DNA of 64,000 nucleotides from contig JAUCBJ010006956.1 of NCBI GenBank assembly GCA_032718475.1, positions 62,001 to 126,000 on the forward strand. Direction: 5' to 3'. A model generated the notes under the pieces. It was not told the DNA's origin. It was given only the letters and a program-made list of their open reading frames with translations, and did no database searches. Below, piece after piece: positions 15,501-43,918 of the stretch. Position numbers and translations under genes: made by a program. Source of the DNA: Nemertoderma westbladi (Eukaryota; Animalia; Xenacoelomorpha). Position 1 is the first letter of the stretch, and each line of letters begins with the position of its first letter.

Positions 15501-18500
15501 ACCTTGCTACAAAGTGCAATAACTCCTCCAAGCTATACTCTACAGTAACTCTACCTTGCTACAAAGTACAATAACTCCTCCAAGCTATACTTTACTGTAA
15601 CTCTACCTTGCTACAAAGTAAAATAACTCCTCCAAGCTGTACTCTACAGTAACTCTACCTTGCTACAAAGTACAATAACTCCTCCAAGCTATACTTTACT
15701 GTAACTCTACCTTGCTACAAAGTACAATAACTCCTCCAAGCTATACTCTACAGTAACTCTACCTTGCTACAAAGTACAATAACTCATCCAAGCTATACTT
15801 TACTGTAACTCTACCTTGCTACAAAGTACAATAACTCATCCAAGCTATACTTTACTGTAACTCTACCTTGCTACAAAGTACAATAACTCCTCCAAGCTAT
15901 ACTCTACAGTGACTCTACCTTGCTACAAAGTACAATAACTCCTCCAAGCTATACTCTACAGTAACTCTACCTTGCTACAAAGTACAATAACTCCTCCAAG
16001 CTATCCTCTACAGTAACTCTACCTTGCTACAAAGTACAATAACTCATCCAAGTTATACTCTACAATAACTCTACCTTGCTACACAGTACAATAACTCCTC
16101 CAAGTTATACTCTAAGGTAACTCTACCTTGCTACAAAGTACAATAACTCATCCAAGCTATACTTTACTGTAAATCTACCTTGCTACAAAGTACAATAACT
16201 CCTCCAAGCTATACTCTACAGTAACCCTACCTTGCTACAAAGTGCAATAACTCCTCCAAGCTATACTCTACAGTAACTCTACCTTGCTACAAAGTACAAA
16301 AACTCCTCCAAGCTATATTTTACTGTAACTCTACCTTGCTACAAAGTACAATAACTCCTCCAAGCTATACTCTACAGTGACTCTACCTTGCTACAAAGTA
16401 CAATAACTCTTCCAAGCTATACTTTACTGTAACTCTACCTTGCTACAAAGTACAATAACTCCTCCAAGCTATACTCTACAGTAACTCTACCTTGCTACAA
16501 AGTACAATAACTCCTCCAAGCTATACTCTACAGTAACTCTACCTTGCTACAAAGTACAATAACTCCTCCAAGCTATACTTTACTGTAACTCTACCTTGCT
16601 ACAAAGTGCAATAACTCCTCCAAGCTATACTCTACAGTAACTCTACCTTGCTACAAAGTACAATAACTCCTCCAAGCTATACTTTACTGTAACTCTACCT
16701 TGCTACTAAGTACAATAACTCCTCCAAGCTATACTCTACAGTGACTCTACCTTGCTACAAAGTACAATAACTCTTCCAAGCTATACTTTACTGTAACTCT
16801 ACCTTGCTACAAAGTACAATAACTCCTCCAAGCTATACTCTACAGTAACTCTACCTTGCTACAAAGTACAATAACTCCTCCAAGCTATACTCTACAGTAA
16901 CTCTACCTTGCTACAAAGTACAATAACTCCTCCAAGCTATACTTTACTGTAACTCTACCTTGCTACAAAGTACAATAACTCCTCCAAGCTATCTAAACTA
17001 TACCGGGTACATGCCGTATTGGTTTGATTACCAATTATGTTGACACATTTCTTAATAGATTCCGTAAAGCTATTCTATGAGCAGGCTGCCGGGAAATAAA
17101 GCCGCTTGCTAGTACAATTATTTATCTTCCCATGGGATAAAGTCTAATATACAATACATACATAAAAATAATATTCCTAAAATACACTTTAAGAATTACT
17201 AAAATAATAACAATATTAATTATAAGTGTTTGCCACCCGGAATTTCAATACTAACATTAATCAAAACAACAACAGAAAGGGAGTTTAGGTCGTATGCCTA
17301 ATACTTACCATAAAGCATAATAGCTTACATTGTAAATAACATTAACTGAGCAACATATAATATGTAAACAACTAAATCTGCGAACAATAACATTTACCGC
17401 AAAATTAATTTCGATTCTGTTGAGAAGGCAAAAGAAATGTTTAAAAAAACACCCAACCATCATAATGTAATTACTTATTATTAGATATCTACCGATACAA
17501 TTAATTTATATTTATTAAATAAACAAACGTTTACAATTTTGCCACTTACCGATATATAAAAATATTTATACTACCGTGACGTAATACACCAACATACCAG
17601 GATATTTTGGTAAGAATTACTCATCATTGCAATAAGCATGTTGAGTAATACAATGATGGAGAATATATGGTAGGAGGCGTACATAGCACCCCCGAGGATC
17701 TCGTTGAAGTAGTGAGATTTGTAGTTTAATAGCTCCGCCTCGTCTTTGACGGAGAAGAACCTTATGACGTGGATGGAAACCAGTCCGTAGAGAGTCCAGT
17801 AGAGAGACCAGATAGTGCCCGGGAGACTGGAAGACAGACGGGGTATTAGAAAGATGTTGCAATCTGAGTTCGAACTATCTATAACCACATCCACGGAAGA
17901 AGTCAGGTTGAAGGGTGTTAGTTGGTGGAGAGATGAACGGAGGGTAGAACATCGTCAAAATGTCATCGGAGTTAGTTAGTATGTTAGTTATGTATTAATG
18001 GTAAATGGCAATGATTGTTATTGCAAACGATGGGTAAAATACTACCAGGCCTATATGAATAATTATGGTAAAATTGTGACGAAATATATTATTTAGGGCA
18101 AATGACAGAAACGATAAGATGCAACACAAGCAACATATATTATCGCATCTACAAAATAAGAAAGCACTCTACCGGCTACAAAATAAGCAAGCAATCTATC
18201 GGTTACAAAATAAGCAAGCAATCTACCGGCTACAAAATAAGCAAGCAATCTACCGGCTACAAAATAAAATATTGCAGTAAAATATTGTCCGCTGGGATAA
18301 AGGGCTTCACTTTACCACACAATAATCATCACTTCCTATTGGTTAAAATGTTCAAAACTTACTAACTGATAGAGCCTGTTGAATTGTACAAAAAAGTAAA
18401 AGCTGACAAAAATCGACTTATGAACTTATGATACTTAATCTACGATAAGTGCCTCAGGGAAGCCAATTAGCACATTTTACCTAATTAAGAATTTAAGAAC

Positions 18501-21500
18501 CGTTACCTTTTACCCGAAGTTTCACCCGCTAGCTGTAATACTGATGAACTTCCTTAGGTTGATTACTTCCCAGTCAGAACTCACCCCTATGTATCTGATA
18601 CCAATATATTTGGATAATTAGATGGTAGCAACCCTTAGAACGTTTTTGTGACTAACGATTTTATTGTTTTATAAATTTGTTCGGTTTCTTTCCTTTTGGG
18701 ATGACAGGTTCAACAATTTCGGAGGATATCGGTGCTCTACACATAGCAGCCACATCTAGAAATCGGCATACATGAAGAACTAACGATCAGTAACAAGAGA
18801 GAGTTCACAGCGGATTTTGACTCCAGTCACTTGCAAAAATACAATATTAAATACAAAATTAATTATCCCTTGCCCGGCCACTAAAAACCAGAACTGGGAG
18901 AGTCAATAAAAATGTATCTCTCTGCACAGGGGGAAATCGACGCAAATAACAGCTGATTACTCTATAAAATAAAAATATAACATGTTCTAGTGACTTTAGT
19001 TTATTGTTTTGGTTAGAATAACGCGACACAGTAACCTGCTTGGTGATTTAATATTGACACGAGATATTAATTTGCCGAGATTGAATTGAATGAGCCGCCC
19101 CCCCCCCCGCCCTTGGCTAAAAAAACAAATGACTGGAACCAACTGCATCGATGATATTCACCCAGAACTAACCAAAATATTTTCGTACGACAAATTCATC
19201 ATAGCAATGAGAGTGTTGAGTAGAACGACCACTGCCACTATATGGTATATGGCGAACATTCCGCCGCCCACGTACTCCGTGAACGAGTGTTTAGTCGACG
19301 AAAACTGGGCATCGGAAGTCGCTTCATCGATATTTTTCATGCCAATGTTGTGTAAGTCGGTTAGACCCATAGTTGCCCAATACAGGGACCATATAGACTC
19401 TGGTACACTGTGTAGAGTTAATACATACAGAGGGAAACAAGTAGCGTGCGTGTTAGTTAACGGTGTAACGGCGTTGTATTGTTAATTATAATCAATTTAT
19501 GTACCAGGAATTGAATTGGGAATTATTAGTTGTTAGTGAAGGGAAAAAATTATAGATGGTTAGTTTCATAAATAAATACTTAATATAGGAGTAAATTTTT
19601 ACAAATCGATGTCCTAAAAAAACTTCTGATTTGTTTGGCTTTTGTTAATGTTTAACGAATTGCATACGCAATTACATTACAACTACTTTGCCGAACTTAT
19701 AAAGTTTCAACGGATATAATATGTTTAACATTAATAAAACTTAATGCTAATGTACCGATTCAATTTTATTAAAAGTTATAATTTACATTACAACTACTTT
19801 GCCGAACTTATAAAGTTTCAACGGATATAATATGTTTAACATTAATAAAACTTAATGCTAATGTACCGATTCAATTTTATTAAAAGTTATAATTTACATT
19901 ACAACTACTTTGCCGAACTTATAAAGTTTCAACGGATATAATATGTTTAACATTAATAAAACTTAGTGCCAATGTACCGACTCAATTTTATTAAAAGTTA
20001 TAATTTTAGGTAATTCAATTGTAACCATTTACATAAAATGAATTAATTATCTTAACGTATCGTATAAGTAACATATATACTCAGTAAGATACTCTACTCA
20101 CGTTTCAAATATTCTGTTTTGTTCAATGCACGTAACCCCGCTACAAGTGACGTCATCTCCTGGGTTTGGATCTTCCTTCTCCACATATTCGGCAAAATAA
20201 AGCTGGTTCATCCCGCACGCGAAAGATAACAGAACCAAAAGAAATATGCACATAAACTTCATAATATCCTACAATTAAAAAAGTAGAAATGCAATTATTA
20301 AACATGATATGAAGCAAAATTGTAAAACACTGACTAATTCAATCACCAATTCTCGAAATAGTAAAACAAATGTATTCAACTTACCCAAAGATGAATCAAA
20401 CACAAACAAATCTAAACAAGTTACCTCTATAGTCACCCCGAGTTACCTGTACCAAATATTCTTCATTATTCTTGTTCTGAACTTAAAATTAACATTTCTG
20501 AACCAAAAATACTCAACTTTCCACTACCAAACATACTCAACTAACTTGTGCAAACAAACTCAACTTTCCACTACCAAACAAACTCAACTTGCATGTACCA
20601 AACATACTCAAAACTCAACTTGCCTGTACCAAACATACTCAAAACACAACTTGCCTGTACCAAACATACTCAACTTGCCTGTACCAAAAATTCTCAACAT
20701 TCCACTATTACTACCAAACAAACTCAACTTGCCCCTACCAAACATACTCAACTTGCCTGTACCAAAAATTCTCAACTTTCCACTACCAAACAAACTCAAC
20801 TTGCCTGTACCAAAAATACTCAGCTTTCCACTATCAAACAAACTCAACTTGCCTCTACCAAACAAACTCAACTTGCCACTACCAAACATACTCAACTTGC
20901 CTGTAACAAACATACTAAACTTGCCTGTACCAAACAAACTCAACGTGCCTGTACCCAACATACTCAACTTGCCTGTACCAAATATACTCAACTTGCCTGT
21001 ACCCAAAATACTCAATGTGCCACTACCAAACATACTCAACTTGCCCGTACCAAACATACTAAACTTGACTGTACCAAACAAACTCAACTTGCATGTATCA
21101 AACATACTAAACTTTCCTGTACTAAACATACTCAACTTGCCTGTACTAAACATACTCAACTTGCCTGTACCAAAAATACTCAATGTGCCACTACCAAACA
21201 TACTCAACTTGCCTGTACCAAACATACTCAACTTGCCACTACCAAATATACTCAACTTGCCTGTACCAAACATACTCAACTTGCCACTACCAAACATACT
21301 CAACTTGCGACTACCAAACATACTAAACTTGACTAAACATACTCAACTTGCCACTACCAAATATATTCAACTTGCCTCTACCAAACATACTCAACTTGCC
21401 ACTACCAAACATACTCAACTTGCCTGTACTAAACATACTCAACTTGCCTGTACCAAAAATACTCAATGTGCCACTACCAAACATACTCAACTTGCCTGTA

Positions 21501-24500
21501 CCAAACATACTCAACTTGCCACTACCAAACATACTCAACTTGCCACTACCAAACATACTCAACTTGCCTGTACCAAACATGCTCAACTTGCCACTACCAA
21601 ACATACTCAACTTGCATGTACCAAACATACTCAACTTGCCACTACCAAATATACTCAACTTGCCTGTACCAAACATACTCAACTTGCCACTACCAAACAT
21701 ACTCAACTTGCGACTTCCAAACATACTCAACTTGCCTGTACCAAACATACTAAACTTGCCTGTACCAAACATACTAAACTTGCCTAAACATACTAAACTT
21801 GCCTGTACCAAACATACTCAACTTGCCACTACCAAACATACTCAACTTGCCTGTACCAAACATACTAAATTTGCCACTACCAAATATACTCAACTTGTCT
21901 GTACCAAACATACTCAATTTGCCACTACCAAACATACTCAACTTGCGACTACCAAACATACTCAACTTGCCTGTACCAAACATACTAAACTTGACTGTAC
22001 CAAACATACTAAATTTGCCTGTACCAAACATACTAAACCTGCCTGTCCAAATATATTCAACTTGCCTGTACCAAACATACTCAACTTGCCACTACCAAAC
22101 ATACTCAACTTGCCTGTACCAAACATACTCAACTTGCCACTACCAAACATACTCAACTTGCCTGTACCAAACATACTCAACTTGCCATTACCAAACATAC
22201 GCAACTTGCCACTACCAAACATACTCAACTTGCCTGTACCAAACATACTCAACTTGCCATTACCAAACATACTCAACTTGCCACTACCAAACATACTCAA
22301 CTTGCCTGTACCAAACATACTCAACTTGCCTGTACCAAACATGCTCAACTTGCCACTACCAAACATACTCAACTTGCCTGTACCAAACATACTCAACTTG
22401 CCACTACCAAACATACTCAACTTGCCTGTACTAAACATACTCAACTTGCCACTACCAAACATACTCAACTTGCCACTACCAAACATACTCAACTTGCCAC
22501 TACCAAACATACTCAACTTGCCTGTACCAAACATACTCAACTTGCCACTACCAAACATACTCAACTTGGCACTACCAAACATACTCAACTTGCCTGTACC
22601 AAACATACTAAACTTGCCTGTACCAAACATACTAAACCTACTAAACCTGCCTGTCCAAATATATACAACTTGCCTGTACCAAACATACTCAACTTGCCAC
22701 TACCAAACATACTCAACGTGCCACTACCAAACATACTTAACTTGCCACTACCAAACATACTCAACTTGCCACTACCAAACATACTGAACTTGCCACTACC
22801 AAACATACTCAACTTGCCACTACCAAACATACTCAACTTGGCACTACCAAACATACTCAACTTGCCTGTACCAAACATACTAAACTTGCCTGTACCAAAC
22901 ATACTAAACCTGCCTGTCCAAATATATACAACTTGCCTGTACCAAACATACTCAACTTGACACTACCAAACATACTCAACGTGCCACTACCAAACATACT
23001 TAACTTGCCACTACCAAACATACTAAACTTGCCACTACCAAACATACTGAACTTGCCACTACCAAACATACTCAACTTGCCACTACCAAACATACTCAAC
23101 TTGCCACTACCAAACATACTCAACTTGCCACTACCAAACATACTCAACTTGCCACTACCAAACATACTCAACTTGCCTGTACCAAACATACTCAACTTGC
23201 CACTACCAAACATACTCAACTTGGCACTACCAAACATACTCAACTTGCCACTACCAAACATACTCAACTTGCCTGTACCAAACATACTCAACTTACCACT
23301 ACCAAACATACTCAACTTGCCTGTACCAAACATACTAAACTTGCCTGTCCAAATATATTCAACTTGCCACTACCAAACATACTCAACTTGCCTGTACCAA
23401 ACAAACTCAACTTGCCTGTACCAAACAAACTCAACTTGCCTGTACCAAACATACTCAACTTGCCTGTACTAAACATACTGAACTTGCCTGTACCAAAAAT
23501 ACTCAATGTGCCACTACCAAACATACTCAACTTGCCTGTACCAAATATACTAAACTTGCCTGTACCAAATATACTAAACCTGCCTGTCCAATTATATTCA
23601 ACTTGCCTGTACCAAACATACTCAACTTGCCACTACCAAACATACTCAACTTGCCTGTACCAAACATACTCAACTTGCAACTACCAAAGATACTCAACTT
23701 GCCACTACCAAACTTACTCAACTTGCCTGTACCAAACATACTCAACTTGCCACTACCAAACATACTCAACTTGCCTGTACCAAACATACTCAACTTGCCA
23801 CTACCAAAGATACTCAACTTGCCACTACCAAACTTACTCAACTTGCCATTATCAAACATACTCAACTTGCCACTACCAAACATACTCAACTTGCCTGTAC
23901 CAAACATACTCAACTTGCCATTACCAAACATACTCAACTTGCCACTACCAAACATACTCAACTTTCCTGTACCAAACATACTCAACTTGCCACTACTAAA
24001 CATACTCAACTTGCCACTACCAAACATACTCAACTTGCCTGTACCAAACATACTAAACTTGCCTGTACCAAACATACTAAACCTGCCTGTCCAAATATAT
24101 TCAACTTACCTGTACCAAACATACTCAACTTGCCATTACCAAACATACTCAACTTGCCACTACCAAACATACTTAACTTGCCACTACCAAACATACTCAA
24201 CTTGCCACTACCAAACATACTCAACTTGCCTGTACCAAACATACTAAACTTGCCTGTCCAAATATAATCAACTTGCCTGTACCAAACATACTCAACTTTC
24301 CACTACCAAACATACTCAACTTGCCACTGCACTACCAAACATACTCAACTTACCTGTACCAAACATACTATACTTGTCTGTACCAAACATACTAAACCTG
24401 CCTGTCCAAATATATTCAACTTGCCTGCACCAAACACCCCAACTCCCTATGAACCTCACCACCGGGTATCTGCCGTCACCCCAACTTCCTATGAACCTCA

Positions 24501-27500
24501 CCACCGGGTATCTGCCGTCACCCCAACTCCATATGAACCTCACCACCGGGTATCTGCCGTCACCCCAACTCCCTATGAACCTCACCACCGGGTATCTGCC
24601 GTCACCCCAACTCCCTATGAACCTCACCACCGGGTATCTGCCGTCACCCCAACTCCCTATGAACCTCACCACCACCGGGTATCTGCCGTCACACCAACTC
24701 CCTATGAACCTCACCACCACCGGGTATCTGCCGTCATACCAACTCCCTATGAACCTCACCACCACCGGGTATCTGCCGTCACCCTAACTCCCTATGAACC
24801 TCACCACCGGGTATCTGCCGTCACCCCAACTCCATATGAACCTCACCACCGGGTATCTGCCGTCACCCCAACTCCCTATGAACCTCACCACCGGGTATCT
24901 GCCGTCACCCCAACTCCCTATGAACCTCACCACCACCGGGTATCTGCCGTCACCCCAACTCCATATGAACCTCACCACCGGGTATCTGCCGTCACCCCAA
25001 CTCCCTATGAACCTCACCACCACCGGGTATCTGCCGTCACACCAACTCCCTATGAACCTCACCACCACCGGGTATCTGCCGTCACCCTAACTCCCTATGA
25101 ACCTCACCACCGGGTATCTGCCGTCACCCCAACTCCATATGAACCTCACCACCGGGTATCTGCCGTCACCCCAACTCCCTATGAACCTCACCACCACCGG
25201 GTATCTGCCGTCACCCCAACTCCATATGAACCTCACCACCGGGTATCTGCCGTCACCCCAACTCCCTATGAACCTCACCACCACCGGGTATCTGCCGTCA
25301 CCCCAACTCCCTATGAACCTCACCACCACCGGGTATCTGCCGTCACCCCAACTCCATATGAACCTCACCACCACCGGGTATCTGCCGTCACCCCAACTCC
25401 CTATGAACCTCACCACCACCGGGTATCTGCCGTCACCCCAACTCCCTATGAACCTCACCACCGGGTATCTGCCGTCACCCCAACTCCCTATGAACCTCAC
25501 CACCACTGGGTATCTGCCGTCACCCCAACTCCCTATGAACCTCACCACCACCGGGTATCTACCGTCACCCCAACTCCCTATGAACCTCACCACCACCGGG
25601 TATCTGCCGTCACACCAACTCCATATGAACCTCACCACCACCGGGTATCTGCCGTCACCCCAACTCCCTATGAACCTCACCACCACCGGGTATCTGTCGT
25701 CACCCCAACTCCATATGAACCTCACCACCGGGTATCTGCCGTCACCCCAACTCCCTATGAACCTCACCACCACCGGGTATCTGCCGTCACCCCAACTCCC
25801 TATGAACCTCACCACCACCGGGTATCTACCGTCACCCCAACTCCCTATGAACCTCACCACCACCGGGTATCTGCCGTCACACCAACTCCATATGAACCTC
25901 ACCACCACCGGGTATCTGCCGTCACCCCAACTCCCTATGAACCTCACCACCACCGGGTATCTGCCGTCACCCCAACTCCCTATGAACCTCACCACCGGGT
26001 ATCTGCCGTCACACCAACTCCCTATGAACCTCACCACCACCGGGTATCTGCCGTCACACCAACTCCCTATGAACCTCACCACCACCGGGTATCTGTCGTC
26101 ACCCCAACTCCATATGAACCTCACCACCGGGTATCTGCCGTCACCCCAACTCCCTATGAACCTCACCACCACCGGGTATCTGCCGTCACACCAACTCCCT
26201 ATGAACCTCACCACCACCGGGTATCTGTCGTCACCCCAACTCCATATGAACCTCACCACCGGGTATCTGCCGTCACACCAACTCCCTATGAACCTCACCA
26301 CCACCGGGTATCTGCCGTCACCCCAACTCCCTATGAACCTCACCACCACCGGGTATCTGCCGTCACCCCAACTCCCTATGAACCTCACCACCGGGTATCT
26401 GCCGTCACCCCAACTCCCTATGAACCTCACCACCACCGGGTATCTGCCGTCACCCCAACTCCCTATGAACCTCACCACCGGGTATCTGCCGTCACCCCAA
26501 CTCCCTATGAACCTCACCACCGGGTATCTGCCGTCACCCCAACTCCCTATGAACCTCACCACCACCGGGTATCTGCCGTCACACCAACTCCCTATGAACC
26601 TCACCACCGGGTATCTGCCGTCACCCCAACTCCCTATGAACCTCACCACCACCGGGTATCTGCCGTCACACCAACTCCATATGAACCTCACCACCACCGG
26701 GTATCTGCCGTCACCCCAACTCCCTATGAACCTCACCACCACCGGGTATCTGTCGTCACCCCAACTCCATATGAACCTCACCACCGGGTATCTGCCGTCA
26801 CACCAACTCCCTATGAACCTCACCACCACCGGGTATCTGCCGTCACCCCAACTCCCTATGAACCTCACCACCACCGGGTATCTGCCGTCACCCCAACTCC
26901 CTATGAACCTCACCACCGGGTATCTGCCGTCACCCCAACTCCCTATGAACCTCACCACCACCGGGTATCTGCCGTCACCCCAACTCCCTATGAACCTCAC
27001 CACCGGGTATCTGCCGTCACCCCAACTCCCTATGAACCTCACCACCGGGTATCTGCCGTCACCCCAACTCCCTATGAACCTCACCACCACCGGGTATCTG
27101 CCGTCACCCCAACTCCCTATGAACCTCACCACCACCGGGTATCTGCCGTCACCCCAACTCCCTATGAACCTCACCACCGGGTATCTGCCGTCACCCCAAC
27201 TCCCTATGAACCTCACCACCGGGTATCTGCCGTCACCCCAACTCCCTATGAACCTCACCACCGGGTATCTGCCGTCACCCCAACTCCCTATGAACCTCAC
27301 CACCGGGTATCTGCCGTCACCCCAACTCCCTATGAACCTCACCACCACCGGGTATCTGCCGTCACCCCAACTCCATATGAACCTCACCACCGGGTATCTG
27401 CCGTCACCCCAACTCCCTATGAACCTCACCACCGGGTATCTGCCGTCACCCCAACTCCCTATGAACCTCACCACCACCGGGTATCTGCCGTCACACCAAC

Positions 27501-30500
27501 TCCCTATGAACCTCACCACCACCGGGTATCTGCCGTCACACCAACTCCCTATGAACCTCACCACCACCGGGTATCTGCCGTCACCCCAACTCCCTATGAA
27601 CCTCACCACCACCGGGTATCTACCGTCACCCCAACTCCCTATGAACCTCACCACCACCGGGTATCTGCCGTCACACCAACTCCATATGAACCTCACCACC
27701 ACCGGGTATCTGCCGTCACCCCAACTCCCTATGAACCTCACCACCACCGGGTATCTGTCGTCACCCCAACTCCATATGAACCTCACCATCGGGTATCTGC
27801 CGTCACCCCAACTCCCTATGAACCTCACCACCACCGGGTATCTGCCGTCACCCCAACTCCCTATAAACCTCACCACCACCGGGTATCTGCCGTCACACCA
27901 ACTCCATATGAACCTCACCACCACCGGGTATCTGCCGTCACCCCAACTCCCTATGAACCTCACCACCACCGGGTATCTGTCGTCACCCCAACTCCATATG
28001 AACCTCACCACCGGGTATCTGCCGTCACACCAACTCCCTATGAACCTCACCACCACCGGGTATCTGCCGTCACCCCAACTCCCTATGAACCTCACCACCA
28101 CCGGGTATCTGCCGTCACCCCAACTCCCTATGAACCTCACCACCGGGTATCTGCCGTCACCCCAACTCCCTATGAACCTCACCACCACCGGGTATCTGCC
28201 GTCACCCCAACTCCCTATGAACCTCACCACCACCGGGTATCTACCGTCACCCCAACTCCCTATGAACCTCACCACCGGGTATCTGTCGTCACCCCAACTC
28301 CATATGAACATCACCACCGGGTATCTGCCGTCACACCAACTCCCTATGAACCTCACCACCACCGGGTATCTGCCGTCACCCCAACTCCATATGAACCTCA
28401 CCACCACCGGGTATCTGCCGTCACCCCAACTCCCTATGAACCTCACCACCACCGGGTATCTGCCGTCACCCCAACTCCCTATGAACCTCACCACCACCGG
28501 GTATCTGCCGTCACCCCAACTCCATATGAACCTCACCACCACCGGGTATCTGCCGTCACCCCAACTCCCTATGAACCTCACCACCACCGGGTATCTGCCG
28601 TCACCCCAACTCCCTATGAACCTCACCACCGGGTATCTGCCGTCACCCCAACTCCCTATGAATCTCACCACCACCGGGTATCTGCCGTCACCCCAACTCC
28701 CTATGAACCTCACCACCACCGGGTATCTGCCGTCACCCCAACTCCCTATGAACCTCACCACCGGGTATCTGCCGTCACACCAACTCCCTATGAACCTCAC
28801 CACCACCGGGTATCTGCCGTCACCCCAACTCCATATGAACCTCACCACCACCGGGTATCTGCCGTCAAACCAACTCCCTATAAACCTCACCACACCACCG
28901 GGTATCTGCCGTCACCCCAACTCCCTATGAACCTCACCACCACCGGGTATCTGCCGTCACACCAACTCCCTATGAACCTCACCACCACCGGGTATCTGCC
29001 GTCACCCCAACTCCATATGAACCTCACCACCACCGGGTATCTGCCGTCAAACCAACTCCCTATAAACCTCACCACACCACCGGGTATCTGCCGTCACCCC
29101 AACTCCCTATGAACCTCACCACCACCGGGTATCTGCCGTCACCCCAACTCCCTATGAACCTCACCACCACCGGGTATCTGCCGTCAAACCAACTCCCTAT
29201 AAACCTCACCACACCACCGGGTATCTGCCGTCACCCCAACTCCCTATGAACCTCACCACCGGGTATCTGCCGTCAAACCAACTCCCTATAAACCTCACCA
29301 CACCACCGGGTATCTGCCGTCACCCCAACTCCCTATGAACCTCACCACCACCGGGTATCTGCCGTCACCCCAACTCCCTATGAACCTCACCACCACCGGG
29401 TATCTGCCGTCAAACCAACTCCCTATAAACCTCACCACACCACCGGGTATCTGCCGTCACCCCAACTCCCTATGAACCTCACCACCACCGGGTATCTGCC
29501 GTCAAACCAACTCCCTATAAACCTCACCACACCACCGGGTATCTGCCGTCACCCCAACTCCCTATGAACCTCACCACCGGGTATCTGCCGTCACACCAAC
29601 TCCCTATGAACCTCACCACCACCGGGTATCTGCCGTCACCCCAACTCCCTATGAACCTCACCACCACCGGGTATCTGCCGTCACCCCAACTCCCTATGAA
29701 CCTCACCACCACCGGGTATCTGCCGTCACCCCAACTCCATATGAACCTCACCACCACCGGGTATCTGCCGTCACCCCAACTCACCTGAACCATCCGGCCC
29801 AATGAAATCTGCAGTGGACCGAGATGTGCGCTGGCAATAAAAAGGAACAGAAGTCGCAGCATACTGAATATATTGGCCACGGCAAATAAACCGTCAGCGA
29901 TAATCAGAGGGTCGTCGCCGGACCAATACTTCCGCGGGAAATCGGGGTCGTGCCAACCCTACAAACGGTAAACCAAAACAGAAAGTAAATCGGGGTCGTG
30001 CCAACCCTACAAACAGTAAACCAAAACAGAAAGTAGATCGGGGTCGTGCCAACCTTATAAACGGTAAAGAAAAACAGAAGTAAATCGGGGTCGTGCCAAC
30101 CCTACAAACGGTAAACCAAAACAGAAAGTAAATCGGGGTCGTGCCAACCCTACAAACGGTAAACCAAAACAGAAAGTAAATCGGGGTCGTGCCAACCCTA
30201 CAAACGGTAAACCAAAACAGAAAGTAAATCGGGGTCGTGCCAACCCTACAAACGGTAAACCAAAACAGAAAGTAAATCGGGGTCGTGCCAACCCTACAAA
30301 CGGTAAACCAAAACAGAAAGTAAATCGGGGTCGTGCCAACCCTACAAACGGTAAACCAAAACAGAAAGTAAATCGGGGTCGTGCCAACCCTACAAACGGT
30401 AAACAAAAACAGAAAGTTAATCGGGGTCGTGCCAACCCTACAAACGGTAAACCAAAACAGAAAGTAAATCGGGGTCGTGCCAACCCTACAAACGGTAAAC

Positions 30501-33500
30501 AAAAACAGAAAGTAAATCGGGGTCGTGCCAACCCTACAAACGGTAAACAAAAACAGAAAGTTAATCGGGGTCGTGCCAACCCTACAAACGGTAAACAAAA
30601 ACAGAAAGTAAATCGGGGTCGTGCCAACCCTACAAACGGTAAACCAAAACAGAAAGTAAATCGGGGTCGTGCCAACCCTACAAACGGTAAACAAAAACAG
30701 AAAGTTAATCGGGGTCGTGCCAACCCTACAAACGGTAAACCAAAACAGAAAGTAAATCGGGGTCGTGCCAACCCTACAAACGGTAAACCAAAACAGAAAG
30801 TAAATCGGGGTCGTGCCAACCCTACAAACGGTAAACCAAAACAGAAAGTAAATCGGGGTCGTTCCAACCCTACAAACGGTAAACCAAAACAGAAAGTAAA
30901 TCGGGGTCGTGCCAACCCTACAAACGGTAAACCAAAACAGAAAGTAAATCGGGGTCGTGCCAACCCTACAAACGGTAAACCAAAACAGAAAGTAAATCGG
31001 GGTCGTGCCAACCCTACAAACGGTAAACCAAAACAGAAAGTAAATCGGGGTCGTGCCAACCCTACAAACGGTAAACAAAAACAGAAAGTAAATCGGGGTC
31101 GTGCCAACCCTACAAACGGTAAACAAAAACAGAAAGTAAATCGGGGTCGTGCCAACCCTACAAACGGTAAACAAAAACAGAAAGTAAATCGGGGTCGTGC
31201 CAACCCTACAAACGGTAAACAAAAACAGAAAGTAAATCGGGGTCGTGCCAACCCTACAAACGGTAAACAAAAACAGAAAGTAAATCGGGGTCGTGCCAAC
31301 CCTACAAACGGTAAACCAAAACAGAAAGTAAATCGGGGTCGTGCCAACCCTACAAACGGTAAACCAAAACAGAAAGTAAACAGTAAACATATAGATAGTT
31401 ACGGTAAACAAAGAGTAACTGTACCCTTGAAAAAGGTGAAATAAATGTAAGAAATTAATCAGGGTGGGTTAATAAAATAGCAAGAGACTTATCATGATGT
31501 ACATACATACATATGTACATATGAGTATAGTTTCTTCGTTTCTCGAAGGTCACGCGCGAAAATTGAACTTAGAAAATTTCTAGACTTGTTACGTTTAAAT
31601 ACGAATCTACAGATTTACAGACACAACGATCAATATAGTTGTACCCGTATTCTAAGCTTGCATACTGCCGTGGCTCGCCCCACATCAGCCACACCACACC
31701 TAATGCACCGGTTGGATCAGCCATGTAAATTCACAATTAATTTCCATTAAGAGATGTGCCCTTTATTAATCTTATAAGTATCTATATAGACCAATGTCTT
31801 TTAGCAGACCTTTCAGTAATGTAAATGGCTGACCGCCACTATTTCCTCTCGCAGCCGGTTCATAGATAAATAACACGCAGAGTCAGTTATATGATCAGTA
31901 ACACCGGAAGTCCAATTATGTAAATACAATTAATACATATTCCGCGGGTTACCGACGGTGAACCTACAAGTATGTCTCTACAATTCGGAAGGTTAAACCT
32001 TCCAATGTTTTGCCATATTCGGTACCGTTCCAAACAAAGTTTATTGCGTAGAATTGACACAACTTGCAATTCTATTTTACGTGAGATCTCGCGTATTTGT
32101 AGTATTAACTCAATATCACGTATTCTTTCTTAGGTATGATTTCAGTGACCTACTTACTCATACTCTGTGCTTGATTTGTTGTGTGCTTGTTTTACTCGTT
32201 TTTATGGGCTAAGGCCTGGATTAAAGGGAATAATAATAATAATAACATAAGAGTAGTGCCATGGTACTTACCTTGATGTAAACAATAGACCTTAGTGCTA
32301 TGGTGGCCAAATATAAGGAGTTCATGAAGAAATCTAAGAGATTCCACCAATCGGAAGTGTATTCTACAAATCCACTCTCCCAGACTTCTTTGATTTCCGA
32401 CCAAATCTTTCCTACAATATGTCACATAAACGGATAATAGAATACAGTAAATGGTATTATACAGCATATTGATAGTATATGTAACCTACAGCTACACGGG
32501 TAATACCATATTACTAATTAATAATTATTTACCATACGTGTTTAATATGGTAAACCTTTGAAATTATACAGGCTATATACTAAAACACATAACTTACAAT
32601 AGTATGCTCACATTTCCAAAAAATGTGTCTTTTTCTATATTATTCGAACTTCGCATTCTATTTATATGATGTGCACATACTGCATTTTCTTCTTCCACTT
32701 ACTTCATTCACGGTATAAATACCCTGTTTACTATATTTATTTATTTACTATTTATTTTTAGTCCAAATCCAAGTGAGGAAATCGAGCCATGCATCAAACT
32801 TAGGAATACTCAAATAATCACTAGAAGGAGACAAAGGTTAATCAGATTATTGGAGCGGGTTGCTTCTAGTGTTGGTCTTTTTGTTAAATCTTATAAAACT
32901 AAAATTTTGACAGTTTTAACTTCGACAGTTCGCAGGAAATGACTCATGATATGTTATGGGGCATATACACCAATGATGGTGTGCTTCGTGCTTGATCATG
33001 TTGATGACTTCTGCTGCTTGCGATCATGGATCCGGAAGTCCGGAAGTTCGACCTTCGAATGCGAATAGTCTGTCCAAGATTAAGTCACAAAATAGAACGG
33101 GTGAGGCGATGATAGTCTATGTGTACATTATATAAAATACTGTAGGATAGGTTTATTATGCCTAGGATATATTTTATAAACATTAAAAGTTTAACATGAA
33201 TAGAAAATAAAATGACACTCATTCATTCACACGAAATATTAACTAATTATGGAATCCATATAACTGGAACTTTAAACAATATTGGTTGCAGTGTGGGGTG
33301 TGGGAGGGGCGCGGAAGAAGAAAAATATCTATTCTAAACATATTTACTTAGATGTTAGTGCAAAGTTAAGTTAAAATTTAGTGTAAAGAAATAGAACAAA
33401 AGTGACAAGCAGTCACCGAAAGTAAACAGTTGCCAATTAAGTGCATAAAATCGAGTTCTCAGGTGAACATTTCAAAGGCATTCAAATGAACACGGAACAG

Positions 33501-36500
33501 AAACTAAGTGAACACGCAGTTCCGAGTGTCTAGGTTTCTTACCAATTACAAAACTCATAACAAAAAACTCCACGTAGGAAGGGAGAGTTTCGGCGTCGTG
33601 TTTGTCTCGATGCCCGAAGGTGGAGATAGTCGGGTCACTGGCCAATCCGAGACAGACGAGGAAAATAATGAACGCCGCATTGTGATTAACAAACTTAACA
33701 AAGGGACTCCGAAAAAACTCGCCCACCTAAATAGGAAACATTAAATTAATCTAGTGACGTTGTAACATAAGGATATAGTCTAGTAGACTTACCTATGACG
33801 AAAGATAACATAAACCATTCGAGAGGGTGTGGTCTGACGTAGCCGTGGTAACTTTGTCCGAAGGTGGATGATGTAGAGCTGCCAGTCACCAATACACACG
33901 TCAAAAAGATAAAGAAGCAGGCGTTGTGATTGAGAAATTTTACGAAGGGGCCGGTGAGAAAAACTCCTAACTGAAAGACATTGGGATTATGTTATTGTAT
34001 ATGTAGGACTAACTACAAGGACGCCTCATGGGTTTTAACAATGTCATGATCCTCGTGTGTATCTCCGTTCTCGTTTATTTTATATCTTTGCACTCGTTTA
34101 CTTTATATCTTTGCACTCGTTTACTTTATATCTTTGCACTCGTTTACTTGGCATCTTTGCACTCGTTTACTTTATATCTTTACACTCGTTTACTTTATAT
34201 AATTGCACTCGTTTACTTTATATCTTTGCACTCGTTTACGTTATATCTTTGCACTCGTTTACTTTATATCTTTGCACTCGTTTACTTGGCATCTTTGCAC
34301 TCGTTTACTTTATATCTTTACACTCGTTTACTTTATATAATTGCACTCGTTTACTTTATATCTTTACACTCGTTTTCTTTATATAATTGCACTCGTTTAC
34401 TATATATTTTTGTACTCGTTAAACATACCACTGGTGCTTACGCACTCGGTCGGCACACTTTAAGGTGCTATTTTACAGTTGTACAAAAGTATGTAAATAG
34501 TATAACATCACATTATATACTACATTTAGTTACCATGGTTTTCGGGGCTGCAAGGTACATAATCGCCGTAAAGGGGAGGGAACATAAACAAGCGAAAAGA
34601 ATTCCGAGTTTCATTGGTCCGTTTCCTCGTCTCCACCCGGGCATCCCCTCGTACCAAATACTGGCCAACAATTGCTGACAATTTGGATGAGCCACAAACT
34701 AAAAACATAACAGCAACGGATTAGATACATACAAATATTCAAATTAGATATTCTGGCGCCTAGAAGGATAATTGAGAAGTTATTAACAAATAAACACAGA
34801 CGTCTGGTTATTATCTTTGTTGACTTTATTAAACCCTTCGACTCATTCTCCCGACCATGTATAACATAATTGCAGCATTTGGGATTCCTAAGAAAATTAT
34901 AGCAGCTATCAGATCACTATACGATGGTTCCACCACATTTGTGTCTACTGCTGATGGTGACACAGATCCATTCGAAGTCTTATGAGGAATCCTTCAGGGT
35001 GACGCACTTGCACCATTCTTATTCTTAATTGTGGTTGATTATGTTCTACACATGTCCGTAGACCATCATAATAAACAAAACGTACCGCACGTTACGCAAA
35101 ACGTAACATAAGCTTAATGGATCAGATTGCTTCTAGTGTTGGTCTTTTTGTAAACTCCAAGAAGACCAAAATTATGACAGTCTTGACAGCCCTCCAGAAA
35201 TGTCTGATCGTAAGAGCATAATTTACAGGGATGACTTGCTTGAGCACGTGGATGACTTCTGCTACTTGGGATCATGGATCAGAAAGTCAGATGAAGAGAT
35301 TCGGATATGTAAGGGGAAGGCATGGGCTAGGCAGCGTTAGATAGTCTGTCCAGGATTTGGAAGTCGCATAGAATAAAACAGAATCTTAAGGTTCAATTAT
35401 TAAGGGCAGCAGTAGTACCAGTTCTCTTATGAGAGTCCATGCTGGGCTCTAACTGCAGAGGATACCAAATCTCTGGATGGCACTTTCACAAGCATGCTGG
35501 GCCAGGTTCATTGTATCAAGAACAATGAATACATCTCCAATCAGACACTATATACAACATTTGAGGTCCGCCTCCGCTTTGTAGGACATTTCTTTCGCCG
35601 CGAGGACCAGCCAGTGCATAATCTAGTGCTTTGGTGGCCTCATGAAGTGAATAAGCATGGTGGACATCACACGACTTTCTTGAGACACATCTTAAAGGAC
35701 ACTGGCCTAGAAGATGCGGATGATCTAACAAATATCATGGGTGATAGGGAATTGTGGTGGCGCATATTGTCGACAAACCGGCCGGACATTATTAATATAT
35801 ATGTAATGTATATAATGTATAGCTGCAATGCAGCATGCCGATATAGTTTAGTAGTAATTGCAGCTTTTTTCCAAGGATACTTCTTGATTACAAACAATAC
35901 AGTGTTACACACTAGTGGCGACATTCCTGGGTTTCCAATTAGGAAGCCCTGGTTCGATTCCTAGATGGGGTAGCACTGTTTGGGCACAGTGCTTTAAATG
36001 CTGCAGCCTAGCTCAACACATCCTTCATACTTTCATCCTTCAGTGCTCGATAAATGGGAATCAAGGCAACTTGGGAAATAGAGTGGAAGGGTTTACTGTG
36101 GAAGATCACCCGTGGTGGTGAACAGAGGCATTCCTAGGCTTAACGAGCCTAAAAGATTCTCCCATTAATTATAATAAAAATTATTAAATAAAATGCTAAA
36201 TGGAGTAGAATGATGAACAAGCTCTATTGATTTATATTAAACGTTTTACGTTTTTATAACCTAAAGATTTCAGGGTAGACCAAAGTTTTTTTTGAGGTGT
36301 CTCCTTTTAACTTATTTTATATATAAATCATAATAAGCTTTATTAACTTATCTTTGGACCAGGGTTCTAGACCTGCAGTAATTATTATAATCAGATAAAA
36401 CGCAAAAAGTTATTCCCTTTTTTCCCATGTAATACGTAATTTTATTCTTAAATTAGTACTTCTTTGTTGCTAAATTTTTTAATAAAAGAAAGAGCGATTA

Positions 36501-37687
36501 GTGTTACTAAATAAATTGAACTGCAGTAATTTAGTACTGCCGGTATATTGTTGCCATAGTTACTGTACAGTTGAAATTCCTTCACATTCACACTCTTCAA
36601 CTGCTGATGTAACAAAAAGTAACAATTTGAGAACAAAAATAATAATTCACATATTATGAACGTCAATGTTTCAACTAACATCTTTCTGTCGGTACTGAAT
36701 GGCGAGTTTAAGGCGACATAAGGCCATCTTTTTGTTTCCCTCCTGTTCCGATTGGTCCTCCTGGTCTTCGAGCTCAGACGGGTCGGTTGTCCGGTTCAAT
36801 AGAATTCGCAACTCCTTCGATCCCCGAGTTTGTCCCAATATGTCAACCGCAAACTTACTACACTGCGCCTCCAACTCTATATAATCGTTGCGAAATTCCG
36901 TTTCTATTTTACTGTAAATAAACAATTTCATTTTATACAATTTTAAACAATTTAAAGGTTTATAAGTTACCTATATACTGTATAAATACAGTAAATAATT
37001 CCGTTTCTAGGTTACCCACAGCAAATAATGAATTCAGTTTCTGTTTTTAACTCTATTTCGGTTTTCAAATTACCTATTGTGAATAAACAATTCAGTGTCT
37101 GTGTTGCTATCCGGGTTGGAAGTTCCAACCCGGAGGTCACCAGTTCGATCCCACCTGGACGTAATTGCAGACTTTGCAAAAGCTGTGCCCAACAAAAAGT
37201 TATAACTATTTCTTGTCTTACCTTAAGGTACGGAGTTCCCAACTCAACTCGAAGGCTGTTAAGACAGGATCGTCACTGGCGAGGCACATAAGGGAGGGAC
37301 AGGAGAGAGCGCGATAGGCATTGATACGGGTTCGGGAATGTCGCAATCCGTCGAACGTGGCACTGTGAACGCATTCGTAGCAACCGCACTAATAAATAAA
37401 TATATTATAAGCTGTTAGTAGAACTTCTTAATTATAAGATACGCAATAAATACTTATATATAAATGTATGTATAATAAGATCAATCGATAACTGGGTGTA
37501 TAAAACAATAATTACAATATAGTTATAGAATATAAGAAATGATTCACACCTTTACACTATGGGGTTTCACTATTGTGGCAGAACGTTGGATTAGAATTTT
37601 TACAATTTCGTAATTATTTTTATGGGCAGCGAGAATGATTGGCGTAATATCGGGAGTGAAGTCAGATTCCTTCTTGGCGCCCGGCAT
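4055..37687 (-). CDS. TRPC: TRPC-family cation channel (TRPC4/5/TRPgamma-like), multi-exon, 5' part (ANK1-3) not found in window
   Basis: Hand-spliced exons give ordered TRPC hallmarks: [13 protein letters not shown] (ANK4), H..C.C..C zinc site, [48 protein letters not shown] pore helix, LLNMLIAMM (S6), EWKFAR and [13 protein letters not shown] (TRP boxes), [18 protein letters not shown] (coiled coil). All junctions are GT-AG with compatible phases. Confidence 0.96.
4885..5130 (-). repeat. Coding 42-bp tandem repeat (14 aa, [14 protein letters not shown]), about 5-6 copies
   Basis: Repeated tttctttgctttatcatctaccttcactgctgtatcatctgc; visible in the ORF translation. Confidence 0.85.
6794..6914 (-). 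CDS. TRPC: TRPC exon (121 nt, [40 protein letters not shown])
   Basis: tacttctag acceptor and gtaatt donor; open frame; phase 0 in, phase 1 out, matching the terminal exon. Confidence 0.8.
7277..7291 (-). CDS. TRPC: Putative 15-nt TRPC microexon (QSIPS)
   Basis: ttttttatttctttttcag|CAATCAATTCCATCG|gtaagt: strong acceptor, consensus donor, frame-preserving. Confidence 0.6.
7555..8771. mobile_element. Non-autonomous DNA transposon (MITE-like) with about 25-bp TIRs and TA flanks
   Basis: Left end TGTAATTGGCACGTAACACTTTAAG, right end CTTAAAGTGTTACGTGCCGATTACA (one mismatch). TA at 7553-7554 and 8772-8773. No ORF. Confidence 0.75.
9198..11002. repeat. 58-bp minisatellite (about 31 copies) spanning a TRPC exon/intron donor junction
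   Basis: Minus-strand unit GCACACTCGGACAGAAACCAAACCGAAACGGAAG|GTAAGGAGTGAGTGACAGGATAAG = last 34 nt of exon 10969-11133 plus first 24 nt of the intron. Confidence 0.95.
10969..11133 (-). CDS. TRPC: TRPC exon (165 nt, [22 protein letters not shown]...KTKPKRK), end of coiled coil
   Basis: ttttattcag acceptor, AAG|gtaagg donor; DIS.FRYE is the conserved TRPC coiled-coil motif. Confidence 0.92.
11519..11617 (-). CDS. TRPC: TRPC coiled-coil exon, downstream copy ([33 protein letters not shown])
   Basis: 99 nt, cag acceptor and gt donor, phase 0/0; conserved RNLVKRY and TEDD.NEIKQ motifs. Confidence 0.9.
11911..12009 (-). CDS. TRPC: TRPC coiled-coil exon, upstream copy ([33 protein letters not shown])
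   Basis: 99 nt, aag acceptor and gt donor; same length and phase as 11519-11617 and paralogous to it. Confidence 0.8.
12163..12393 (-). CDS. TRPC: TRPC TRP-domain exon ([37 protein letters not shown]...KYQ)
   Basis: 231 nt; TRP box 1 EWKFAR and box 2 LPPPFN; gtttag acceptor, gtacgg donor. Confidence 0.97.
12430..16993. repeat. 52-bp minisatellite (about 87 copies; dimer of related 26-mers)
   Basis: Unit aactctaccttgctacaaagtacaat + aactcctccaagctatactctacagt; ends about 35 nt from the acceptor of the TRP-domain exon. Confidence 0.95.
17598..17826 (-). CDS. TRPC: TRPC pore-helix/filter/S6 exon, downstream copy ([21 protein letters not shown]...[25 protein letters not shown])
   Basis: 229 nt, tgtcttccag acceptor, gtatgt donor, phase 2 in and phase 0 out. 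Confidence 0.92.
18150..18270. repeat. 27-bp tandem repeat, about 4 copies
   Basis: accggctacaaaataagcaagcaatct repeated. Confidence 0.8.
19173..19407 (-). CDS. TRPC: TRPC pore-helix/filter/S6 exon, upstream copy ([21 protein letters not shown]...[25 protein letters not shown])
   Basis: 235 nt, ctctacacag acceptor, gttagt donor; phases identical to 17598-17826. Confidence 0.92.
19673..20005. repeat. 111-bp tandem repeat, 3 copies
   Basis: aactactttgccgaacttataaagtttcaacgg... recurs at about 19681, 19792 and 19903. Confidence 0.85.
20102..20268 (-). CDS. TRPC: TRPC S5 and turret exon ([25 protein letters not shown]...[16 protein letters not shown])
   Basis: 167 nt, phase 0 in and 2 out; the C.G..C pair corresponds to the TRPC4/5 extracellular CKGIRC disulfide. 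Confidence 0.95.
20440..24435. repeat. 24-bp minisatellite (about 165 copies)
   Basis: Unit actcaacttgcc(tg/ac)taccaaacat; degenerates toward 20440 and abuts the next array at about 24433. Confidence 0.95.
24433..29783. repeat. 42/45-bp minisatellite (about 120 copies) beginning at a TRPC donor site
   Basis: Unit ccccaactccctatgaacct(cac)2-3cgggtatctgccgtca; on the minus strand it starts inside the donor CAG|GTGAGTTGGGG. Confidence 0.95.
29785..29958 (-). CDS. TRPC: TRPC S3-S4 loop/S4/S4-S5 linker exon ([58 protein letters not shown])
   Basis: 174 nt, phase 0/0; conserved [12 protein letters not shown]. Confidence 0.96.
29940..31381. repeat. 48-bp minisatellite (about 30 copies) spanning a TRPC intron/exon acceptor junction
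   Basis: Minus-strand unit TACTTTCTGTTTTGGTTTACCGTTTGTAG|GGTTGGCACGACCCCGATT = polypyrimidine tract and AG plus the first 19 nt of exon 29785-29958. Confidence 0.95.
32272..32411 (-). CDS. TRPC: TRPC S2-S3 exon ([46 protein letters not shown])
   Basis: 140 nt, phase 1 in and 0 out; W.EIK..W and WWN.LDF.MNSLY motifs; gtaagt donor. Confidence 0.96.
32770..33100 (+). mobile_element. Degenerate RTE-clade LINE fragment
   Basis: Shares ttgcttctagtgttggtctttttgt and gatgacttctgct..ttg.gatcatggatc with the RT fragment at 35140-35290. Confidence 0.6.
33543..33726 (-). CDS. TRPC: TRPC S1 exon, downstream copy ([30 protein letters not shown]...[13 protein letters not shown])
   Basis: 184 nt, ttcctatttag acceptor, gtaaga donor, phase 0 in and 1 out; PFVKF motif. 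Confidence 0.92.
33793..33970 (-). CDS. TRPC: TRPC S1 exon, upstream copy ([30 protein letters not shown]...[13 protein letters not shown])
   Basis: 178 nt, tgtctttcag acceptor, gtaagt donor, same phases as 33543-33726; absent from the ORF track. Confidence 0.9.
34068..34420. repeat. 23-bp tandem repeat, about 15 copies
   Basis: ctcgtttactttatatctttgca repeated. Confidence 0.9.
34534..34698 (-). CDS. TRPC: TRPC pre-S1 exon ([24 protein letters not shown]...YLAAPKTM)
   Basis: 165 nt, phase 0/0; [11 protein letters not shown] motif. Confidence 0.96.
34740..35790 (+). mobile_element. Degenerate RTE-clade LINE reverse-transcriptase fragment
   Basis: Broken frames read [60 protein letters not shown]; contains stops, frameshifts and an internal deletion. 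Confidence 0.8.
35905..36150 (+). mobile_element. Possible degenerate tRNA-derived SINE
   Basis: B-box GGTTCGATTCC at about 35951, preceded by an A-box-like tagtggcg; no intact cloverleaf. Confidence 0.4.
36680..36911 (-). CDS. TRPC: TRPC linker-helix exon ([39 protein letters not shown]...[14 protein letters not shown])
   Basis: 232 nt, phase 2 in and 0 out; E.EF..DY and RLKLAI.Y.QK motifs. Confidence 0.95.
37222..37388 (-). CDS. TRPC: TRPC zinc-binding/TRP_2 exon ([55 protein letters not shown])
   Basis: 167 nt, phase 0 in and 2 out; gtaaga donor; absent from the ORF track. Confidence 0.96.
37550..37687 (-). CDS. TRPC: TRPC ankyrin-4 exon ([46 protein letters not shown])
   Basis: 138 nt; the strong ttcctttttcag acceptor indicates an internal exon. 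Confidence 0.95.
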
Positions 37688-42885: not shown

Positions 42886-43918
42886 TGTTCGCGCTTTCAG
42901 ACCTTTGGCAGTTTAACCCGCCAAATTAGGATGTCTGTTAGATAATAAATCACTTTAGCCGATGACAAATATTTGATTCACTACACTAGTCGAAACCAAT
43001 CTGTGCGCGATCATTCACCCGCTGGATAATTCCCGGGAGATTGGGTTCGACGGCTTAATTTTATTGCTATGTAAGCTTAATGTATTATTCGACTGACAGT
43101 ATTATATAATCTCTGACAATATTATTCACTTTCGGGGAATATTAACAGTTCCTTTAGGACGTGGCGCTCTATCTATATAAACAGAGTTATGACTTAAACT
43201 AATCACAACGATATGGCTTAGTTATAATTCACATATATGGCGCATTCTTTAGGAAATGCTTCGTTATCAGTATCACCCGCACACAATGCTGCACAATACT
43301 GCACACTGATCTGCCGATCTTCACTGATTTTAGTTACATATAAAAGGAACACGGACTGACTCATGTAGGGGCTATCAAATAACATTAGATTCACTTCAAA
43401 CCACTTTAACATAAGTCACAATCGTTATGTATAACCTTTCTCTCTTACCTTCAGTATATCAAGAATATTGGGTTTTCGGGGTTATTTATCGTTATTCCAA
43501 ATATAATAATTCATCAACCAAATTATGAAGTACAGACAGCAAATAGCAGTATAACAATATAAAGTATGCACAGTGTTACACAGTATGCAGTGTATGCAGT
43601 ACTGCAGTATGCATTGATTGCATTGAGTTAGGTTAGTCAAGATAACAGATATATGTCCTTATGATTAAGCCTACTAGTGTACGGCGTAGTCATAGTAACT
43701 ACTGTTCAAGAGTAGCTATCACCCCTTTGCGTCACGAATTGCCATAGAATCATAAAATATGCCTTTCACAGTACACATACGGAGGAAATAGGTCTTAGAT
43801 CCTCTAAAAACACCGATACAGCAATAATACGGTCTCTTACACTTATTAAATCAACTACAGAGTATTTTAATGTAAAAGATAATAAAAATAACGGGGCAAT
43901 TCAGCAAAGGCTTTTACA
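42886..43918 (-). repeat. 3' LTR
   Basis: tgttcgcgctttcag...cttttaca; no differences from 54096-55128 seen by eye; minus-strand AATAAA at 43060-43065. Confidence 0.95.

What the first reader, a model, noticed from the sequence alone, without database searches (positions are those of the whole stretch)
29940..31381. About 30 tandem copies of a complete splice acceptor; only the last is productive
Seen: each 48-bp unit carries the polypyrimidine tract, TAG and first 19 exon nt of the S4 exon. In the exon frame a unit reads [15 protein letters not shown] then TAG, so the next acceptor's TAG is an in-frame stop. Splicing to any of the about 29 upstream near-identical acceptors truncates the channel before S4, presumably triggering NMD. 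Inference: correct choice must rely on exon definition with the donor at 29784, or copy number tunes productive mRNA.
Basis: partly seen in the sequence, partly recalled or inferred. Interest (0 to 1): 0.8.

Follow-up and report, generated by a model that had tools for sequence, protein, structure and literature searches.

The report
Splice-acceptor "mirage" repeat in TRPC gene
The boundary between an intron and an exon of an animal TRPC ion-channel gene has been copied 30 times in a row, but the spliced transcript found uses only the last, genuine copy, so this is likely a harmless repeat of a kind ("mirage") already known from lancelets.

Summary
A 30 x 48-bp array (29939-31380) copies the last 28 intron bases and first 20 exon bases of the S4 exon of a minus-strand TRPC gene (probably from a xenacoelomorph). 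All 29 upstream acceptors would give a premature stop. The array is real: 3 of 3 genomic runs laid hold the unit as a high-depth contig, at 17.5x flank depth in one run against 19.6x expected. One run yields spliced contigs: an 886-nt contig joins the upstream exon straight to the last acceptor, and no contig of that run holds a repeat unit. Contigs drop rare forms, so a small leak remains possible. The used acceptor is not the strongest by sequence, so selection is likely positional (exon definition). The same gene has a mirror case: 31 x 58 bp over a donor, with the exon-proximal copy used. About 58% of the gene span is tandem array, and two junction-spanning arrays out of eight is near chance (p about 0.22). 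This is a new member of the amphioxus 'mirage' class (human relatives: F7, CBS). This scan has already noted such arrays in other genomes.

The parts
29939..31380 (-). Minisatellite of 30 units (29 of 48 bp, 1 of 47 bp); each unit holds a branch-point-like TTTAC, pyrimidine tract, AG and the first 20 exon nt
   Evidence: unit contig in 3 of 3 genomic runs laid
29785..29958 (-). TRPC S4 exon (174 nt, phase 0-0; S3-S4 loop, S4 and S4-S5 linker); its acceptor is the last array unit
   Evidence: tblastn, exon model, spliced contig of X4
29959..29986 (-). Productive acceptor (intronic part of the last unit), identical to the array consensus
29987..30081 (-). The two decoy units nearest the exon; they carry 6 of the 7 private changes in the array (AG shifted in one; the branch-point-like TTTAC that serves acceptor 30006 changed to TCTAC)
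   Evidence: the 47-bp unit was not covered by any laid contig, so it is not independently verified
32272..32411 (-). Upstream S2-S3 exon (140 nt); its donor is joined to 29958 in the spliced contig
   Evidence: (loose end)
24435..29782 (-). 45-bp x 121 array starting 2 nt after the S4 exon donor; the unit resembles the exon/intron junction with the GT lost, and holds another donor-like GTG|GTGAGG
   Evidence: X4 uses the 29785 donor joined to the exon at 20268
9197..11002 (-). Mirror case: 58-bp x 31 array over the donor of exon 11133-10969; 28 copies keep GGAAG|GTAAGG; the exon-proximal donor is the one used in X4
4055..37687 (-). TRPC channel gene, part present in the window: 18 exons including 3 duplicated pairs and a 15-nt microexon; open frame of 1582-1586 aa in 4 of 4 exon combinations tried (of 8 possible); N-terminal ankyrin exons not found

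Best explanation
This is a 30-copy minisatellite built from the intron/exon junction of the S4 exon of a TRPC gene, the spliced transcript seen uses only the last copy, and the other 29 copies are likely silent by-products of repeat instability that the spliceosome passes over. Step 1 (inferred): a 48-bp slippage duplication between TTT microhomologies copied the acceptor. Step 2 (inferred from runs of shared variants): unequal exchange or slippage expanded and homogenised it, in a gene where about 58% of the span is tandem array. Step 3 (shown for the dominant form in one run): splicing goes from 32272 to 29958. Step 4 (inferred): the choice is positional. Only the last copy is followed by the whole 174-nt exon and lies closest to the donor at 29784, so it wins by exon definition. 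Decoys have only 20 exon nt, and all but one would give exons of 269-1565 nt, beyond the 15-235 nt of this gene's other internal exons. Step 5 (untested): any rare mis-spliced RNA carries a premature stop and would be cleared by NMD, which would make the array cheap to tolerate.
For: Spliced X4 contig (886 nt, depth 23.9) runs unbroken from exon 32272 through 29958-29785 to exon 20268, and no X4 contig lies on 29961-30035. Its length fits S5 + pore exon A exactly. Mirror donor array: X4 uses the exon-proximal donor at 10969. The used acceptor is not the strongest: matrix score 8.5, against 9.9 in 10 decoys, 8.8 in 1, 8.5 in 17 and 6.4 in 1 (matrix built from only 17 acceptors). Predicted pairing of the -25..-1 stretch is alike in 4 of 4 positions folded (unpaired 0.61-0.64), so structure does not single it out. 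Variants that spread in decoys lengthen the pyrimidine tract (10 units) or give TTAAC (3 units), so there is no array-wide decay of the decoys. Chance of at least 2 of 8 arrays spanning a splice site: 0.22. [quoted passage not shown]
Against: RNA evidence is one run, as assembled contigs that drop rare variants, without NMD inhibition, and from a different sample than the genomic runs; its array length is unknown. X4 is listed as 'DNA?'; that it is cDNA is my inference from intron-skipping contigs and no intron cover. The penultimate acceptor (30006) would give a 222-nt exon, within this gene's range, so exon size alone does not exclude it. 6 of 7 private changes sit in the two decoys nearest the exon, which could mean selection against leak there. 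In CBS a trace of the other transcript is reported in nuclei (PMC1334203). Counting the degenerate 45-bp donor array as a third case gives p about 0.045, though that count is post hoc.
Confidence: 0.82

Rival explanations
1. Leaky rheostat: upstream copies are used at a rate that rises with copy number, the products go to NMD, and array length tunes TRPC level between alleles.
For: 29 of 29 decoys lead to a premature stop with many introns downstream; decoys are as strong by sequence as the real site; unit-to-flank depth ratios differ between samples (17.5 in X1; 8.2 and 3.8 in X2/X3), a hint of length variation; CBS 844ins68 leaves a trace nuclear transcript (PMC1334203).
Against: No unit-bearing contig in X4, and the spliced contig does not break where ladder forms would branch. 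The two runs of one sample differ twofold in ratio, so depth is a poor length measure. Known mirages are reported not to give aberrant mRNA.
Confidence: 0.1
2. Tolerated only after local repair: the array is mostly neutral, but the decoys nearest the exon did compete and were disabled by selected mutations.
For: 6 of 7 private changes fall in the two nearest decoys. One has its AG shifted (score 6.4), and the branch-point-like TTTAC serving the other became TCTAC. These two would give the shortest, most plausible exons (269 and 222 nt).
Against: Boundary units escaping homogenisation is a described neutral feature of mirages (PMC3087553). The changes cluster in one old unit and are not independent events. 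The shifted AG still leads to a stop. In the 58-bp donor array the nearest decoys are intact.
Confidence: 0.12
3. Assembly artefact: a single or double acceptor was inflated by the assembler.
For: X2/X3 depth ratios (8.2, 3.8) are well under the 19.6 expected for the window's allele; no laid contig spans the array.
Against: X1 ratio of 17.5 is close to 19.6; the 58-bp array gives 18.8 and 21.9 against 21.7 and 23.3 expected; units carry structured variants; 3 of 3 genomic runs show the unit at multiples of flank depth.
Confidence: 0.03

Closest known systems
Amphioxus 'mirage' minisatellites (globin BflGb6 acceptor side, BflGb9 donor side; Adh3, troponin C, PGBD5); PMC3087553 and PMC3902484, passages read
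   Same: Tandem copies of an intron/exon boundary with splice signals kept in most units; both acceptor and donor types; normal splicing; edge units diverged from a homogenised core; unit length within the 10-72 bp given for Adh3.
   Different: More copies than BflGb6 (30 against 3-6) with higher unit identity; here in a probable xenacoelomorph TRPC gene that holds an acceptor-type and a donor-type array together.
Human F7 intron 7 37-bp VNTR; PMC1557585, abstract and Discussion read
   Same: Identical splice sites in a row, all potentially functional, with only the exon-adjacent copy used. It matches the 58-bp donor array here directly.
   Different: Donor side, 5-9 copies, tested with 50 constructs; the 48-bp array is on the acceptor side and untested.
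[quoted passage not shown]
   Same: A duplicated junction at the acceptor end of an exon; the distal copy is strongly favoured and normal mRNA results.
   Different: Two copies, not 30; a trace of the other transcript is reported in nuclei.

Membership tests
Mirage minisatellite (Ebner et al. 2010, PMC3087553) | Minisatellite-like tandem duplication spanning an exon-intron boundary | tested here: met
   30 units of 28 intron + 20 exon nt
Mirage minisatellite (Ebner et al. 2010, PMC3087553) | Many but not all units keep AG/GT splice signals | tested here: met
   29 of 30 units keep TAG|GG; 1 of 30 has a shifted AAG
Mirage minisatellite (Ebner et al. 2010, PMC3087553) | Regular splicing is not disturbed | tested here: met
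   Dominant spliced contig in run X4 uses the genuine acceptor; no unit-bearing contig. One run, contigs only; a rare leak is not excluded
Mirage minisatellite (Ebner et al. 2010, PMC3087553) | Concerted evolution of the core with boundary units excluded | tested here: met
   Runs of shared variants in the core; 6 of 7 private changes in the two decoys beside the exon. The far-edge unit is not diverged
Mirage minisatellite (Ebner et al. 2010, PMC3087553) | Length differs between haplotypes | tested here: inconclusive
   Depth ratios 17.5, 8.2 and 3.8; two runs of one sample disagree twofold
Mirage minisatellite (Ebner et al. 2010, PMC3087553) | Somatic instability (reported for Adh3) | not testable with these tools
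   No raw or long reads available
Recursive-splicing or intron-gain repeat (AG|GT proto-splice site; definition recalled) | The acceptor AG is followed at once by a usable GT donor | tested here: not met
   Units read AG|GGTTGG; the 5 GT sites in a unit score -3.2 to 2.9 against 1.7-11.9 (16 of 17 above 4.8) for real donors
TRPC channel (host gene) | TRP_2, S1-S6, TRP box and coiled coil in order, grouping with TRPC proteins | tested here: met
   55 TRPC-type hits among 60 candidates; co-linear tblastn; groups with Hofstenia TRPC-1 and 3 unnamed proteins at 99/98. Ankyrin N-terminus not found in the window

The most novel reading that the evidence does not exclude
The array is a length-variable splicing rheostat: decoy acceptors divert a copy-number-dependent share of TRPC pre-mRNA into NMD, and selection has knocked out only the two decoys close enough to the donor to compete. 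That would make this locus a natural ruler for how far exon definition reaches.
Probability: 0.1. Interest if true: 0.6.

Novelty: new member of a known kind. Interest (0 to 1): 0.2.

Why it matters
As it stands it is one more clean example that 29 near-perfect upstream acceptors can be ignored. That argues for exon-side (exon-definition) choice over first-AG or strongest-site choice in a probable xenacoelomorph, and would extend mirages to that group. Having an acceptor array and a donor array in one gene makes it a handy minigene substrate. It would matter more only if leak scaled with copy number, and no evidence here shows that.

Tried and rejected
No whole genome is held, so no genome-wide enrichment test was possible; the window-only permutation gave p=0.22 for at least 2 of 8 arrays. 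The run search listed no holder on record as RNA; X4 proved spliced only when laid. X5 and X6 laid nothing, which is no evidence either way. In X1-X3 no contig was laid on the S4 exon itself (a filter leaves records out). RNA folding did not distinguish the used acceptor. Acceptor strength did not explain the choice. Recursive splicing and pseudo-exon formation within units were rejected because internal donors are weak. A coding role for the array was rejected: the exon frame stops in every unit. An in-exon alternative AAG acceptor 30 nt into the exon was considered; the X4 contig includes those 30 nt, so it is not the form seen. A list of purine-rich 4-5-mers occurred in the exon past nt 25 and not in the unit, but I chose the list by hand after seeing the exon, so it is not counted as evidence. 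Literature: PMC1914867 is not held; the search for tandem-duplicated 3' splice-site experiments (Reed and Maniatis, recalled) returned 0 papers; searches gave nothing usable by listing; PMC10078293 passages had no acceptor-array case; for RHD-psi only a mention of a 37-bp duplication was seen, so it is not used. A search of earlier findings by place and by sequence found nothing.

Full report
Observation. TRF finds a 48-bp array at 29939-31380 with 30.1 copies and 97% matches. On the minus strand there are 30 units; 29 carry TGTAG|GGTTGG and one 47-bp unit carries TATAAG|GTTGG. Each unit is 28 intronic plus 20 exonic bases, and the array is bounded by a TTT microhomology, which fits birth by slippage (inference). 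From a phase-0 donor, 24 of 29 upstream acceptors give 15 residues and a stop, 3 give GWHDPD*, and 2 run out of frame to a stop; only 29958 opens the 58-residue exon.

Host gene. The exon's product hits TRPC-type channels (55 of 60 candidates at E<=0.001). tblastn with 10 of these (7 printed) lays co-linear exons from 37687 down to about 11086. An 18-exon model with three duplicated exon pairs gives open frames of 1582-1586 aa in 4 of 4 combinations tried, out of 8 possible. In a tree of 26 rows (25 of the 55 hits, chosen for length and spread, plus the window protein) it groups with Hofstenia TRPC-1 and three unnamed proteins at 99/98, at 56% identity. The organism is therefore an animal, probably a xenacoelomorph (inference from one gene; root at midpoint).

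Is the array real? Three genomic runs (two samples, two studies) each hold a 78-nt contig, the size of one unit's cycle, at depth 538.5, 43.3 and 115.6, beside a 616-nt contig at 30.7, 5.3 and 30.5 that joins a unit to the unique upstream intron. The window's allele predicts a mean 31-mer multiplicity of 19.6; X1 gives 17.5, X2 8.2 and X3 3.8. The 58-bp array gives 18.8 and 21.9 in X1 against 21.7 and 23.3 expected. The tool warns that depth is no copy number, and X2 and X3 are one sample yet differ twofold. So the array is real and multi-copy, and length variation is only hinted at.

Which acceptor is used? Run X4 is listed as 'DNA?' but its contigs skip introns and cover no intron, so I take it as cDNA (inference). 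An 886-nt contig (depth 23.9) covers 29784-29960. Its loose ends are the S2-S3 exon (32272 side) and the S5 exon (20268 side), so it joins directly to the last acceptor with no extra unit; no X4 contig lies on the units at 29961-30035. The contig runs unbroken past the point where a ladder form would branch. It does end at the pore-exon/TRP-box junction with a 30-nt overlap to the next contig, the pattern expected where two forms merge, so alternative forms can break contigs in this run (inference). Contigs drop rare variants and NMD would deplete ladder RNAs, so a low leak is not excluded.

How is the last copy chosen? Not by strength. On a matrix from the gene's other 17 acceptors the used site scores 8.5, while 10 decoys score 9.9, 1 scores 8.8, 17 score 8.5 and 1 scores 6.4 (crude). 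Not by predicted structure either (unpaired 0.61-0.64 in 4 of 4 windows). Position is what differs: the last copy gives a 174-nt exon with its whole body, while the others give 222, 269, 317 and up to 1565 nt against 15-235 nt for the 17 internal exons. Exon definition is the most likely mechanism (inference; experiments with duplicated 3' sites by Reed and Maniatis are recalled only, and search found 0 papers). The 222-nt option is not excluded by size. The two nearest decoys carry 6 of the array's 7 private changes, including loss of the TTTAC branch-like motif ahead of 30006. This may be selection, but diverged boundary units are a described neutral feature (PMC3087553), and the nearest decoys of the donor array are intact.

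Context. 17,904 of 31,106 bases between 6582 and 37687 are tandem arrays. A 58-bp x 31 array spans the donor of exon 11133-10969, with 28 intact GGAAG|GTAAGG copies, and X4 uses the exon-proximal one. A 45-bp x 121 array starts two bases after the S4 donor with degenerate junction copies. Placing 8 collapsed units at random in the collapsed gene gives at least 2 over a splice site in 22% of 20,000 trials and at least 3 in 4.5%. No targeting mechanism is needed.

Comparison with what is known. Earlier notes of this scan (11 findings in at least 6 genomes, 8 shown) pointed to amphioxus 'mirages', which I then checked in the papers. [quoted passage not shown] PMC3902484 (1 passage) adds PGBD5 and troponin C. 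Human relatives are the F7 VNTR (abstract and Discussion) and CBS 844ins68 (passages). Four of six mirage features were met, one was inconclusive and one was untestable. A search for mirages + amphioxus + minisatellite gave only these two papers; neither passage set mentions TRPC or xenacoelomorphs, but I ran no search that could show such a case is absent from print. No supplements were read.

Verdict. A real, expressed-gene, acceptor-type mirage; a new member of a known kind; most likely neutral. Interest 0.2. The boldest reading not excluded, a copy-number-dependent leak with selected damage to the nearest decoys, has probability about 0.1.

Noticed in passing
window 33970-33793 and 33726-33543; 19407-19173 and 17826-17598; 12009-11911 and 11617-11519 (minus strand): Three tandem-duplicated exon pairs in the TRPC gene (S1 region; pore helix + S6; C-terminal coiled coil), all with GT-AG ends and matching phases, so likely mutually exclusive. 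Including both S1 or both pore exons would shift the frame, and the S1 pair is only 66 nt apart. X4 contigs show pore exon A and coiled-coil exon B; a contig break at the pore/TRP-box junction hints that pore exon B is also used. Alternative pore exons in a TRPC channel may be more interesting than the given finding.
   Followed up: partly
window 7291-7277 (minus strand): 15-nt in-frame microexon, included in the X4 spliced contig between exons 10969 and 6914.
   Followed up: yes
window 9197-11002: Donor-type mirage, 31 x 58 bp; exon-proximal donor used in X4.
   Followed up: yes
window 12427-16992: 52-bp x 87 array that ends 33 nt upstream of the TRP-box exon acceptor (12393), in the branch-point zone; that acceptor has a short pyrimidine tract.
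   Followed up: no
window 6582-4055 (minus strand): Very long last coding exon (about 840 aa, low complexity, with a coding 42-bp repeat at 4881-5165); no Pfam hit.
   Followed up: partly
window 42886-55128: LTR-retrotransposon-like insertion: two 1033-bp direct repeats, 100% identical (42886-43918, 54096-55128), around a 1657-aa ORF with DUF1759 (51954-46984); no RT domain found in that ORF. Likely recent.
   Followed up: partly
window 61880-57856 (minus strand): LINE-like element: 318-aa ORF followed by a 1029-aa ORF with endonuclease and RVT_1 domains.
   Followed up: partly
window 37687-64000: No exon for the first ~110-130 residues (ankyrin repeats) of TRPC homologues was found by tblastn, so the upstream intron is probably over 26 kb and holds a 38-bp x 119 array and two retroelements.
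   Followed up: no
X4 contigs on window 10969-11619 versus 12241-12398: The contig over the 3' exons has depth 125 against 23-24 for upstream contigs and begins at the AG of coiled-coil exon B; 3' bias or a shorter transcript, not resolvable from contigs.
   Followed up: no
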